A stretch of DNA of 64,000 nucleotides from Octopus vulgaris (Eukaryota). Positions 11,543 to 32,827 of this stretch are shown piece after piece. The stretch covers positions 14,632,001 through 14,696,000 of the forward strand of contig OX597836.1 of assembly GCA_951406725.2 (NCBI GenBank), given 5' to 3'. The notes beneath the pieces are model-generated. The model was given only the letters and a program-made list of their open reading frames with translations, made no database searches and was not told the origin of the DNA. A program made the translations under genes and the position numbers. How positions within the stretch are numbered: the first letter of the stretch is position 1; the number at the start of each line of letters is the position of its first letter.

Positions 11543-11628
11543 ATTATTGTGAATTATAAAAGAGATTTAAAAGCATACCGGTTTCGTAAATTTACTAATC
11601 ATTGCTTTGAATGCACAAAGCACCACAA

Positions 11629-11632
<4 letters not shown>
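11543..11632 (-). mobile_element. ~90 bp PLE-type terminal repeat, copy 1 (second copy 13215-13304)
   Basis: Near-identical direct repeat 1.67 kb apart, carrying a hammerhead-like motif. Confidence 0.7.
11570..11608 (-). ncRNA. Minimal type I hammerhead ribozyme-like motif, A3-U8 core variant
   Basis: Minus strand: AAAGCA [AUGAUUA] GUAAAUUUAC [GAAA] CCGG [UA] UGCUUU. 6-bp stem I, G-C closed stem II, palindromic ACCGGU stem III, GUA site. Confidence 0.7.
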
Positions 11633-11681
<49 letters not shown>

Positions 11682-11684
<3 letters not shown>

Positions 11685-11884
11685 CCGCGTGTGTACCGTT
11701 GGCGATTTTTTTTGCCTCTGTCTTGCCTTCTCTGGATCTTTCCTTCTCCTATGTTTCCGACGAAGAGCTCCGCTCGAAACGTTAAACCCTTCTTCTTTCC
11801 TTCTTTCCTGACAGTCCAATAATACTATATTTGTTCCACGTCCTCGCGTTGTTGTGTTTTCTCTTTGTGTTTTCATGTTTGGAT

Positions 11885-11890
<6 letters not shown>
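11682..11890 (+). mobile_element. ~205 bp PLE-type terminal-repeat element within (TA)n (second copy 18792-19001, minus)
   Basis: Two similar dispersed copies. Contains a CCGACGA-AGAGCTCCGCTC-GAAACGTT hammerhead-like motif. Flanked by (TA)n on both sides. Confidence 0.75.
11753..11787 (+). ncRNA. Minimal hammerhead-like motif (U4C variant of the 18897-18931 motif)
   Basis: GUUU [CCGACGA] A GAGC UCC GCUC [GAAA] CG [UU] AAAC. Confidence 0.55.
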
Positions 11891-11929
<39 letters not shown>

Positions 11930-12389
11930 TATGTATTTTACATTGTGACAATACAAAAATTGCCAGTATAGTCTTGGAATTGTAATATTTCCATTCTACC
12001 ATCAACACATCCACCCGCCACACCAACTTCCGAATATAACGAGTTTATGAAAGTGCAACAACAACAACAAAATGACAAAAGCAACAACAAAAATTGGGAA
12101 AAACCAGCGAAAAATTATATAAAAAACAATAAATATTGAAGCATTATTAACATCAAATAGAACACAAAAATAATGATACTAATTAATGATGATGATGATG
12201 GAGGATGATGATGAGGAGGAGGAGGAGGAGGATTATGATGAGTTTTTGATTTAGGACTTGTTTAATTATGCGTTAATTCTCTGTTGAATATGTTTTTAAT
12301 TGTTTTTTTTTTAATTTATTACTTTTTAAGGATTTGGAAAATAAGAATTATAAAATTACAAATTATCTATCTATCTATCTATCTATCTA

Positions 12390-12449
<60 letters not shown>

Positions 12450-12514
12450 GTCTGTCTGTCTGTTTGTGTATCTATCTACCTATCTTTCTATCTATCTATC
12501 TCTCTCTCTCTCTG

Positions 12515-12547
<33 letters not shown>

Positions 12548-12591
12548 GTGTGTGTACGTGTTTGTATGTGTGTGTGTGTTCCTGCCTCAAA

Positions 12592-12648
12592 GCTTTCACT
12601 CTATACACACCAGGTCAATTTGATGACCTGGTGTGTATAGAAGAAAGC
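12592..12648. repeat. Hairpin/inverted repeat with 18-bp perfect stem
   Basis: TCTATACACACCAGGTCA-ATTTGA-TGACCTGGTGTGTATAGA, extended by GCTTTC/GAAAGC. Confidence 0.85.
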
Positions 12649-12956
12649 CACCTGTTGTTATCGTCTTGTTTGTATTTGTAATTGTGTAACATGTTCTCCG
12701 TTTTTTGTCTTTGTTGTCGTACACATTCGCTTGCTTTCTCGCAAAAAAATATTTTGCTCTTAGCTTAGGCTTTTGGGGGACAACCAGATTTCAACAGTCT
12801 TATTCAATTGTAACTGAACGAAACTGTAAGGACAATCTTGAAACTTGACTGAAGAGAGAAGGCCATGAGATGACTCGTCCTTGTTGTTTTTCCTGTCCGC
12901 CTTTGTAACGTCTATCTGTCCGGATGTTTTATTGTCTTCTATTGCGTTTTTGTTCC

Positions 12957-13040
<84 letters not shown>

Positions 13041-13241
13041 TGTTATATGTTACAAAAAGAAAATAGTAACTACTCGTGGAAATGTAAGGGAAAGTAAGAA
13101 GAAAAATAAGCTAAAATTCATTGGAAATGAAAAAAAGTAAAGGCTTTTTATGAAAAGCAACGATAGATATATACAATTAGATGAACTGAGATAGGAATAA
13201 AAGTAATAAAAGTCATTATTGTGAATTGTTAAAGAGATTTA

Positions 13242-13280
13242 AAAGCATACCGGTTTCGTAAATTTACTAATCACTGCTTT
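13242..13280 (-). ncRNA. Minimal hammerhead-like motif, G3.U8 variant, in repeat copy 13215-13304
   Basis: Minus strand: AAAGCA [GUGAUUA] GUAAAUUUAC [GAAA] CCGG [UA] UGCUUU. Confidence 0.6.
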
Positions 13281-13779
13281 GAATGCACAAAGCACTACAA
13301 ATTTGAGGAAAGGCGGACGGAAAGAAAGAATGAAAGAAGTTTAAGAGGAGAGGCAGAGTGAGCACAATGTTATAACTCTATGCGGTTATATTGCTGTTAT
13401 ACACCCTGGATGGATGAAGAAAATTTCTAAACTTGAAATTTTATTTGCTGTTGTCGTCATTGATGTTGCTGCTGCTACTGCTGCTGCTGCAGCTACTTTT
13501 TTAGTTGTTGTTGTTGTTGTTGTTTAGTCCTATGAGAAGCCCTGCTCATATTGACCTAAGACCAAACGTGATCAAGTCGTAACCATTTTAATTTTCTTTT
13601 TTTTTTAATCTTTTATTCATTCATATATTACACAGTTTCTCCTCATTCATTCTTTTTTCTTTTCTTAAATGATAAAGTGTGGCAAATAGAAAGATTTGAC
13701 TTCATTTACTTCCTCACCATTCTGATGTACTCGATTTTCGTTTTTATTTCTGCTTGTGTAAGAACACGTAGTCGTGTTC

Positions 13780-18580: not shown

Positions 18581-18896
18581 CAAAATGAAAGCTCCCGTCG
18601 AAGAGGACATAGAAGCATTCAGCCGGATGATCTGCGCAAATGGTTTGTTTACAGTGATCAAATTTTCAAATGTTCGTGCTGCACATTAGTTCACTCTCTC
18701 CATGAAACCGACGTTGTCTGAACAGTTTCACGGTGTGCCACACTCTCTCACACACACACACACACACACACATACACAATCAAAAAAATACATAGTTAAA
18801 CCAAACATGAAAACACAAAGAGAAAACACAACAACGCGAGGACGTGGAACAAGTATAGTGTTATTGGACGCTCAGGAAAGGAAAGAAAGAAGGAGG

Positions 18897-18931
18897 ATTT
18901 AACGTTTCGAGCGGAGCTCTTCGTCAGAAAC
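18897..18931 (-). ncRNA. Minimal type I hammerhead-like motif with canonical CUGACGA/GAAA core, inside element 18792-19001
   Basis: Minus strand: GUUU [CUGACGA] A GAGC UCC GCUC [GAAA] CG [UU] AAAU, with palindromic ACGU stem III. Confidence 0.7.
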
Positions 18932-19534
18932 ATAGGAAAAGGAAAGATCCAAGGAAGGAAAGACGGAGGAAAAAAATCACCAACGATACACACGCGATCA
19001 CATATTATATATATATATATATATATATGATAGGCTTCTTTCGATTTCCGTCTACGAAAGCCATTCAGAAAGCTTTGGTCGGCCGGCCGCTAGAGTAGAA
19101 GACACTTGCCGAAGGTGTCACGCGGTGGGACTGAACCTATGTGGTTGAGAAGCAAAGTTCTTGCCACACAGCCTCCCCCACTCTGCACTGCTCAAGAGCT
19201 TCCTGAATGTGTTCCACCCACCACGACCACCACCTCTGGGCATAGTCAGTCCCCCACGTGATCTCCTGTTTGGTGTGATTTGAGACGGTCACTATCTCGG
19301 AGCGGAGTTTATGTTTTATGTTTTATGTTTTATGTTTTACTTGTTTCAGTCATTAGACTGTGGCCATGCTGGGGCACTGCCTTAATGCTGTTTTAAAAAA
19401 AAAAAGAAGAAGAGAACGTTGGATTTAAACAATTGGTAAAACGTCCGGAAAATGATGAAGAAGGGTAGAAGGAAGAGAAGGTGGTGGACGGCGACGACAA
19501 CAACGATGATGACGCGACGATGGTGGTGGCGGTG

Positions 19535-31879: not shown

Positions 31880-32565
31880 ACACAATGTAATCATCAAATT
31901 TGAAATGTGTTTAACTGAGAGTTGAGTTCTTGCCATGGGAACGCGATTTGCTCCAGTTTTCGCGAACTCAGTATTAGAATACTTGGAACAAAACCTATAT
32001 AAAAAGAGATTGAAGAGAACCACGGCCTGATCTCTAAAAGACATATAGAGGACCCATGGAAAAGATACCTCGATGATTGTTTCCTAATTTGGACCAAATC
32101 CCTAGAAAATCTGGAAGAATTCAGCACCCTCCTCAATAATCTACACTTTAGTCTCAAATTCACTAGAGAAATGAGCAATACATAATTACCATTTCTTGAC
32201 ATAATGGTAATTAAAAACATCACAATCATAACTGATGTTTATTACAAAAGCGCAGATATACGCCAGTACCTAAATTTCAAATCATGCCACCCAATACACA
32301 CAAAACGCAACATCCTGTACTGTCTAGCCAGGAAAATTTGTACTATAGTCGATGATCCAAATACCAGAAACACACGGCTTATAGAACTCGAAAGATTTCT
32401 GCTCAAGCAAAAATACCCTCTCCTACTTATAGAAAATAGCATACAACGAGCAAAAGCGATACCTGTAGAACAACTTAGAGCAACACGAAAGAGATGAACT
32501 CATCAAAGGAACACAATACCATTTCTAGTAACACACAACCCACATCACCAAAACATCTTAAACAT
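31880..32565 (+). pseudogene. Penelope-like element reverse transcriptase fragment (decayed)
   Basis: LAMGTRFAPVFAN ... WKRYLDDCFLIW ... KFTRE...LPFLDIMV ... TDVYYKSADIRQYLNFKSCHP.HTKRNI..CLARKIC, matching PLE RT palm/thumb motifs. Contains a frameshift and a stop. Confidence 0.88.

Positions 32566-32827
<262 letters not shown>

What the first reader, a model, noticed from the sequence alone, without database searches (positions are those of the whole stretch)
11543..13304. A3-U8 / G3.U8 hammerhead motif in a 90-bp direct repeat, with both stem II and stem III palindromic
Seen: two near-identical 90-bp copies 1.67 kb apart in the same orientation. The motif AAAGCA-RUGAUUA-GUAAAUUUAC-GAAA-CCGG-UA-UGCUUU has self-complementary stem II (GUAAAUUUAC) and stem III (ACCGGU). 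Inference: two copies on one transcript could fold as a double hammerhead and release the intervening RNA, as in retrozymes. Alternatively they are independent insertions or a local duplication.
Basis: partly seen in the sequence, partly recalled or inferred. Interest (0 to 1): 0.7.

Follow-up and report, generated by a model that had tools for sequence, protein, structure and literature searches.

The report
Penelope-like hammerhead with swapped core pair
The two 90-base copies are the tail of a broken Penelope-like jumping gene that was likely duplicated on the spot, not a retrozyme; the hammerhead motif they carry, predicted but not shown to cut itself, has a swapped core base pair that over a thousand other motifs in this genome share.

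Summary
The repeat is real (86 of 90 bases identical, 1,672 apart, minus strand) and the hammerhead is read correctly. It is the 3'-UTR minimal type-I hammerhead of a Penelope-like retrotransposon family (RT, zinc-finger linker, GIY-YIG; at least 180 copies). The pair is a likely local duplication of one 5'-truncated copy: its 15-base 5' junction occurs only twice in 2.8 Gb. The spacer is microsatellites and unrelated repeats, and only 1 of 65 family copies has a direct partner nearby. The retrozyme reading is not supported. The stem II palindrome is not conserved (20 of 50 copies) and favours an inactive dimer in folding. G3·U8 is likely a private mutation. The interesting part lies at clade level: among CCGG-stem-III motifs, 2,632 are U3-A8, 1,213 A3-U8, about 110 G3-C8 and almost none C3-G8; only 34 of 3,879 A/U cores are unpaired, with at least 4 pair switches on a tree. 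U3-A8 is published; I found no natural A3-U8 or G3-C8 report, but could not read Lünse 2017. Cleavage is untested.

The parts
11543..11632 (-). Copy 1: 90-bp duplicate (15-nt leader plus 75 nt of the PLE 3' UTR), bounded by AT-rich simple repeats on both sides
11570..11608 (-). Minimal type-I hammerhead motif with A3-U8 core: stem I 11608-11603/11575-11570, core 11602-11596, stem II 11595-11586, GAAA 11585-11582, palindromic ACCGGU 11582-11577, predicted cut 11576/11575
   Evidence: positions read
11618..11632 (-). 15-nt non-family leader shared only by the two copies; its UGCUUUG pairs with CAAAGCA and hides the 5' arm of stem I in predicted folds
11633..13034 (.). Spacer: 31% perfect simple-repeat runs, plus fragments of other repeats; not shared with other copies of the family
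11683..11888 (+). Fragment of a different repeat on the opposite strand, with its own minimal hammerhead at 11753-11787 (core CCGACGA); a second copy at 18795-18999 has CUGACGA
13035..13289 (-). 5'-truncated 3' end of the Penelope-like element (starts about 40 nt upstream of the predicted cut, ends at the family's 3' terminus in a (TA)n tract)
13215..13304 (-). Copy 2 of the 90-bp repeat
13242..13280 (-). Hammerhead motif with G3·U8 core (G at 13274, likely a private A-to-G change); predicted cut 13248/13247
13290..13304 (-). 15-nt leader at the 5' truncation junction of copy 2

Best explanation
The two copies are the 3'-untranslated tail of a Penelope-like retrotransposon (RT plus C-terminal GIY-YIG, Neptune-type linker), carrying that family's minimal hammerhead motif with an A3-U8 core, and the pair likely arose by local duplication of one dead, 5'-truncated insertion. 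Shown: sequence, family link, copy numbers, covariation, uniqueness of the junction. Inferred mechanism in the parent element: a transcript from a tandem (pLTR-ORF-pLTR) copy holds two motifs whose ACCGGU palindromes would pair to form a 6-bp stem III. The resulting double hammerhead would cut after GUA, probably slowly and with protein help, trimming the element RNA. The 3-8 tertiary pair only needs to be Watson-Crick, so lineages have switched among U-A, A-U and G-C. Inferred for this locus: reverse transcription stopped just upstream of the motif, the fragment was inserted at a (TA)n tract, 90 bp including the junction were later copied 1.67 kb away, and both copies have since picked up private changes. 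The pair most likely has no function.
For: Family link: 28 other loci share 75 of the 90 bases; most continue about 200 nt to a common 3' end at (TA)n, and several extend upstream into reading frames. GIY-YIG found in family fragments (PF01541, E 1.3e-4, at the cut-off). RVT_1 plus GIY-YIG, both above cut-off, in the related copy L048. CX4CX2C linker seen in translations. A young sister family has an intact 811-codon frame with same-strand hammerheads about 4.0 kb apart (L053, L054, L057, L059). Duplication: the junction pattern has 2 hits in 2.8 Gb, both here. Direct partner in 1 of 65 copies, inverted partner in 6 of 65. Selection on the motif: 1,213 A3-U8 and 2,632 U3-A8 of 3,879 A/U cores, leaving 34 unpaired. 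Of the first 100 of 126 G/C cores, 90 are G3-C8, 4 C3-G8 and 6 unpaired (hand tally). 55 of 60 distinct variants are Watson-Crick at 3-8 against 33% shuffled; stem I pairs hold in 82-88% with compensatory types. At least 4 pair-state changes on a 36-row tree. Literature: PMC4209133 (PLE minimal hammerheads, palindromic helix III, dimer action, U3-A8), PMC8557442 (architecture, TA bias), PMC11167929 (protein-assisted cleavage; G3-C8 partial rescue).
Against: No cleavage data. Only 2 of 65 copies begin at the predicted cut, about what the neighbouring density of truncation points gives, so the genome shows no footprint of cleavage. In a deep mutational scan of a type III hammerhead only the G:C swap rescued the 3-8 pair; other double mutants were low (PMC9901934, section 7), so A3-U8 may be barely active. 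Stem II is weak: the second pair holds in 78% and the third in 50% of variants. No full-length copy of the A3-U8 subfamily itself was found; the best frames are broken. The counts are of related copies, not independent events, and the loci for the tree were picked by core type. How the 90 bp were duplicated cannot be told. Two Pfam scans of RT-side fragments and one EN fragment gave no family (3 of 5 proteins blank).
Confidence: 0.87

Rival explanations
1. Retrozyme-like unit: the two copies fold as a double hammerhead on one transcript and release or circularise the 1,672-nt intervening RNA, which is then mobilised.
For: Same orientation; palindromic stem III; in the computed ensemble of the 1,762-nt span the two ACCGGU palindromes pair with probability about 0.57. 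Isolated cores can form the double hammerhead at -15.1 kcal/mol.
Against: The full set of double-hammerhead helices has probability about 3e-8 in that span, and the leader hairpin hides stem I (long AU-repeat folds are unreliable). The junction is unique to this locus; the spacer is microsatellite plus unrelated repeats and is not repeated with the motif. Animal retrozymes are 150-450-bp tandem monomers with canonical type I motifs (PMC7229834). Direct pairs are rare: 1 of 65.
Confidence: 0.04
2. Two independent insertions of the same PLE family that happen to lie 1.67 kb apart in a TA-rich hotspot.
For: The family targets (TA)n and the region is full of TA tracts and other insertions. The copies differ at 4 of 90 positions, similar to differences among family members.
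Against: Both copies share the same 5' truncation point and a 15-nt non-family leader found nowhere else in the genome. Copy 1 lacks the family's 3' end, which independent insertions normally keep.
Confidence: 0.04
3. The pair has been co-opted by the host, for example as cleavage sites in the 5' region of the DMRT-family gene that lies about 6 kb downstream on the same strand.
For: A DM-domain frame lies at 5586-4777 on the minus strand (PF00751, E 3e-24). The copy-2 insertion is bridged to its flank in contigs of three runs with three organism labels, so it is old.
Against: Both copies carry private changes, one in the core; the leader disfavours folding. Nothing shows that the region is transcribed. 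The host gene's 5' exons are unknown.
Confidence: 0.03
4. Copy 1 is an assembly artefact at a TA tract (a second haplotype or a misjoin).
For: Copy 1 is bounded by simple repeats on both sides.
Against: Copy 1 has two private changes of its own and keeps the likely ancestral letters at two positions where copy 2 is changed; its flanks are unrelated to those of copy 2.
Confidence: 0.02

Closest known systems
Minimal type-I hammerheads of metazoan Penelope-like elements (Cervera and De la Pena 2014, PMC4209133, parts 1-2 of 4 read and supplement file 2 searched; Lünse et al. 2017 known only through the review PMC6765202 and recall)
   Same: Type I topology, short stem I, 1-2-bp stem III with a palindromic loop predicted to need a dimer, location in the 3' UTR/pLTR, mostly single truncated copies, inverted neighbours, and a U3-A8 covariant family already reported in Schistosoma.
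   Different: Core is A3-U8 (and G3-C8 in a sister subfamily), which I did not find reported from nature. No unpaired base between A9 and G10.1; stem II is only 1-3 bp; stem III palindrome is 6 nt (ACCGGU). In this clade C3-G8 is nearly absent.
EN+ Penelope-like elements of the Neptune/Nematis type (Craig et al. 2021, PMC8557442, passages read)
   Same: RT followed by CX2-5CxxC linker and GIY-YIG, 5' truncation, partial tandems, adjacent inverted copies, (TA)n insertion bias, hammerhead near the 3' end.
   Different: Clade placement was not tested against reference sequences. The young sister family has a second open frame (495 codons stop to stop) overlapping the RT frame.
Metazoan non-LTR retrozymes (Cervera and de la Pena 2020, PMC7229834, passages read)
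   Same: Type I hammerheads in direct orientation.
   Different: Retrozymes are 150-450-bp tandem monomers whose whole unit is repeated and expressed as circles; here only 90 bp are repeated, 1,672 bp apart, once in the genome.

Membership tests
EN+ Penelope-like element (Neptune/Nematis type) | RT followed by a C-terminal GIY-YIG endonuclease upstream of the motif | tested here: met
   GIY-YIG in L022 and L004 directly upstream of the same hammerhead; RVT_1 and GIY-YIG above cut-off in L048, 81% identical to the L008 fragment. The window copies themselves hold no coding part.
EN+ Penelope-like element (Neptune/Nematis type) | CX2-5CxxC zinc-finger-like linker between RT and EN | tested here: met
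   CX4CX2C seen in translations of L008, L022 and L053; by inspection.
EN+ Penelope-like element (Neptune/Nematis type) | pLTR-type partial tandems and adjacent inverted 5'-truncated copies | tested here: met
   Inverted partner in 6 of 65 family copies; tandem hammerheads about 4.0 kb apart around an intact frame in the sister family. No full-length copy of the A3-U8 subfamily was found.
EN+ Penelope-like element (Neptune/Nematis type) | Phylogenetic placement in Neptune or Nematis with reference RTs | not tested
   No reference PLE sequences were held; the label rests on the linker motif described in PMC8557442.
PLE minimal type-I hammerhead | U4-G5-A6-N7-x-A9, GAAA, UH cut site and closing stem I | tested here: met
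   stem I pairs hold in 82-88% of 60 variants with compensatory types.
PLE minimal type-I hammerhead | Watson-Crick pair between positions 3 and 8 | tested here: met
   A3-U8 in copy 1 and in 36 of 50 family copies, G3-C8 in 9. Copy 2 has only a G·U wobble.
PLE minimal type-I hammerhead | Canonical C3-G8 identity and the usual unpaired base between A9 and G10.1 | tested here: not met
   hence filed as a variant, not a plain member of the published consensus (PMC4209133).
PLE minimal type-I hammerhead | Very short stem III with palindromic loop allowing a dimer | tested here: met
   ACCGGU; homologous copies vary to other palindromes, ACCGCGGU and ACCAUGGU; double-hammerhead energy -15.1 kcal/mol.
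PLE minimal type-I hammerhead | Self-cleavage as a dimer | not testable with these tools
   Needs an in vitro assay. The indirect test (copies starting at the cut) was negative: 2 of 65.
Metazoan non-LTR retrozyme | Head-to-tail monomers of about 150-450 bp, whole unit repeated | tested here: not met
   Spacing 1,672; spacer not shared with the family; junction unique.
Metazoan non-LTR retrozyme | Abundant circular or linear unit-length RNA | not testable with these tools
   No raw RNA reads were offered.
Plant LTR retrozyme | LTRs of about 350 bp with type III hammerheads, PBS and PPT | tested here: not met
   Repeats are 90 bp and the motif is type I; definition from PMC6765202 section 11. 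PBS and PPT were not searched for.

The most novel reading that the evidence does not exclude
A whole Penelope-like clade in this genome has left the canonical C3-G8 core and cycles among U3-A8, A3-U8 and G3-C8, with about 4,000 motifs that CUGANGA descriptors miss. A3-U8 and G3-C8 are unreported natural cores that cleave in vivo as protein-assisted dimers, giving a natural series for the 3-8 tertiary pair and suggesting that hammerhead counts in other genomes are too low.
Probability: 0.35. Interest if true: 0.5.

Novelty: new variant of a known kind. Interest (0 to 1): 0.33.

Why it matters
The locus itself is ordinary: a dead retrotransposon tail copied once. The clade-level pattern is modestly useful. 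It shows evolutionary covariation of the hammerhead's one tertiary Watson-Crick pair through all four combinations, including A3-U8, which one mutational scan (PMC9901934) found nearly inactive in a type III hammerhead. That argues that fold and probably cleavage are under selection in PLEs, whose hammerhead function is still unsettled (PMC8557442, PMC11167929). It also gives ready test constructs and warns that standard descriptors and Rfam (0 hits in this window) miss thousands of motifs.

Tried and rejected
Rfam scan of the window: no match at gathering scores. tblastn of an intact sister-family protein against the window: only an unrelated RT fragment at 31929-32566, nothing between or beside the copies. 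Target-site-duplication model: rejected, because the rest of the element lies between the copies next to copy 2 rather than outside them. Both palindromes pairing in one dimer: rejected on topology (my reasoning: stems II and III stack in opposite directions); the stem-II-swapped duplex (-17.2, MFE -17.7) outcompetes the active fold (-15.1), whereas for the non-palindromic L015 variant the double hammerhead is the minimum-energy fold. The same call shows that for L069, L053 and L067 cores the minimum-energy fold also departs from the ideal double hammerhead, so folding energies are weak evidence. Enrichment of 5' ends at the cut: not found, 2 of 65. Expression: no RNA holder listed, only contigs; contigs cannot show ends. 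Presence of copy 1 in related runs: only the copy-2-type contig covered the leader in X18 and X19; a missing contig is no evidence, so the age of the duplication stays open. G10.1-C11.1 being 60 of 60 was required by my pattern and is not evidence. Literature: search for 'hammerhead' with 'A3-U8' gave 0 papers; with G3-C8, U3-A8, A3U8, G3C8 or U3A8 gave 2 papers, neither reporting natural A3-U8 or G3-C8 in the passages read; further searches. Lünse 2017, Przybilski and Hammann 2007 and Nelson and Uhlenbeck 2008 were not held; supplement file 1 of PMC4209133 was not searched. These could already contain such cores. Earlier scan notes: none by sequence or by words.

Full report
Observation. The two stretches 11543-11632 and 13215-13304 match at 86 of 90 positions and lie 1,672 bases apart in the same orientation. 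On the minus strand each holds a minimal type-I hammerhead motif: stem I AAAGCA/UGCUUU, core RUGAUUA, stem II GUAAAUUUAC, GAAA, CCGG, and UA at the cut. Copy 1 has A3-U8 (11602) and copy 2 has G3·U8 (13274). A relaxed scan of both strands of the window returned 5 motifs, two of them these. Rfam found nothing at gathering scores.

It belongs to a dispersed Penelope-like family. A DNA search of the genome gave 636 candidates, 40 scored and 43 matches listed; all but the two window copies align from query position 16 or later. In 28 other loci the shared sequence mostly continues about 200 nt downstream to a common end at a (TA)n tract, and in many it continues upstream by variable lengths. Upstream frames encode an RT C-terminus, a CX4CX2C linker and a GIY-YIG domain. 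Pfam gave GIY-YIG for 2 of 5 fragments and nothing for 3. The related copy L048 has RVT_1 and GIY-YIG above cut-off. The motif sits about 200 nt behind the endonuclease end. An exact 26-mer downstream of the motif has 180 hits. No intact copy of this subfamily turned up among 20 fetched candidates. A sister family, about 66% identical in protein, has intact 811-codon frames, 98-99% identical copies and same-strand motifs about 4.0 kb apart with inverted neighbours. That is the PLE layout described in PMC8557442 (passages read). The linker points to the Neptune/Nematis type; I did not test placement against references.

The pair is a likely local duplication. Both copies start at the same truncation point and share a 15-nt leader that the family lacks; a 23-nt pattern over this junction has exactly 2 hits in 2.8 Gb, both here. 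Copy 2 runs on to the family's 3' end at 13035; copy 1 stops after 90 bases. The 1,402-base spacer is 31% perfect simple repeats and holds pieces of other repeats, one with its own hammerhead on the opposite strand. I examined 65 family copies chosen by the downstream 26-mer: 70 fetched of 180 hits, with 5 members of one 20-kb-period array dropped; among the later rows I skipped some that were already held or listed. One had a direct second motif (295 bp away) and 6 an inverted one. Flanks were 1.5 kb for 25 copies and 2 kb for 40, so a partner at 1.67 kb could be missed in the 25. Among the first 28 loci, L004 has a partial direct copy 175 bp away. Single contigs bridge the copy-2 junction to its unique flank in three runs with three organism labels, so that insertion is old. 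Difference counts for the X19 contig (1 against copy 1, 3 against copy 2, none listed in the flank) imply that its orthologue has A3, so G3 is likely private to this assembly; this is inferred from counts, not read directly.

Stem II palindromy is incidental. Among 50 exact-pattern copies, 20 have GUAAAUUUAC and 30 GUAAUUUUAC (hand tally). In the 65-copy sample 2 of 31 parsed copies had the palindrome; across the clade 3 of 60 distinct variants did. For isolated cores the double hammerhead scores -15.1 kcal/mol and the stem-II-swapped duplex -17.2, so the palindrome favours an inactive dimer. The stem III palindrome, in contrast, persists, and homologous copies vary to other palindromes. In the real 1,762-nt span the two ACCGGU words pair with probability about 0.57, but the full double-hammerhead helix set has probability about 3e-8, partly because the leader pairs with the 5' arm of stem I. 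Folds of long AU-repeat RNA are unreliable, so this is supporting evidence only.

The core swap is clade-wide and covaries. In one search the 50 copies split 36 A3-U8, 9 G3-C8, 2 G3·U8 and 3 unpaired (hand tally). A relaxed pattern requiring UGA-N-N-A-G, a 5-8-nt gap and C-GAAA-CCGG-U has 4,300 hits against 5 for the control (that pattern excludes motifs with G before position 3). Exact counts: 2,632 U3-A8 and 1,213 A3-U8 of 3,879 A/U cores, leaving 34 unpaired. There are 126 G/C cores, of whose first 100 listed 90 are G3-C8, 4 C3-G8 and 6 unpaired (hand tally). Of 60 distinct variants in fetched loci, 55 are Watson-Crick at 3-8 (shuffled mean 33%, maximum 55%; 3-7 control 57%), and stem I shows compensatory pair types. 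These count relatives, not events. A tree of 36 endonuclease DNA segments needs at least 4 changes of pair state. For that tree, 16 near-identical young copies were dropped, rows under 250 nt or without a parsed motif were left out, 3 labels were corrected by hand, 2 non-paired rows were not counted, and loci were picked by core type. A3-U8 appears in a well-supported clade of its own and again among G3-C8 copies with moderate support.

How it likely works. In an intact tandem element two motifs on one precursor would pair their ACCGGU palindromes to build stem III and cut after GUA (inferred from PMC4209133, parts 1-2 read, and the review PMC6765202, section 11 read in part). Activity is probably low and protein-assisted, as shown for an Anolis PLE, where a G3-C8 double mutant partly rescued cleavage and no RNA reads began at the cut (PMC11167929, passages). 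Against activity: only 2 of 65 copies start at the predicted cut, no more than neighbouring positions give, and a mutational scan of a type III hammerhead found only the G:C swap active (PMC9901934, section 7). At this locus the fragment has no coding part and a leader that disfavours folding, so it is most likely inert. A DM-domain gene lies about 6 kb downstream on the same strand, but nothing links the two.

Comparison and novelty. Minimal PLE hammerheads with palindromic stem III are known, and natural U3-A8 cores are published (PMC4209133; PMC3088659, section 8 read). I found no report of natural A3-U8 or G3-C8 cores. Three key papers were not held and one supplement was not searched, so this may already be in print. 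PMC3884650 (passages) mentions G3-C8 only as an engineered variant. The retrozyme criteria of PMC7229834 (passages) are not met. Earlier scan notes on this genome concern other hammerhead types; none matched this family by sequence or words. Verdict: an ordinary locus and a new core variant of a known ribozyme kind; interest 0.33.

Noticed in passing
window 5586-4777, minus strand: Open frame with a DM DNA-binding domain (PF00751, E 3e-24), a DMRT-family gene exon, about 6 kb downstream of the hammerhead pair on the same strand.
   Followed up: partly
window 11683-11888 (+) and 18795-18999 (-): A second repeat family with a minimal hammerhead of the published type (extra A after A9, ACGU palindrome, GUU cut); core CCGACGA in one copy and CUGACGA in the other.
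   Followed up: partly
window 31929-32566 (+): Broken RT fragment of another Penelope-like element, 45% identical to the sister-family protein.
   Followed up: no
L053-L064, for example L054:1572-5317 (-): Young Penelope-like family, 98-99% identical copies, intact 811-codon RT-EN frame overlapped by an upstream 495-codon frame (no Pfam match), and a U3-A8 hammerhead with a 2-bp stem II.
   Followed up: partly
L052:313 and 678 (+): Two identical U3-A8 hammerhead motifs of an unrelated sequence 365 bases apart in direct orientation, a spacing like that of animal retrozymes.
   Followed up: no
window 11616-11632 and 13288-13304: The leader holds UGCUUUG, the reverse complement of CAAAGCA just downstream, and resembles a decayed fold-back of the motif's 5' half; short inverted copies at this junction recur in L003, L029 and L128.
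   Followed up: partly
window 12592-12648: Imperfect inverted repeat (TACACACCAGGTCA ... TGACCTGGTGTGTA) inside the spacer.
   Followed up: no
L118-L123 (G000:C1:132.44-132.54 Mb): Six family copies at a period of about 20 kb, a segmental tandem array.
   Followed up: no
L160, L168, L180: Subfamily copies with a short tandem duplication of the stem I and core region just upstream of the motif.
   Followed up: no
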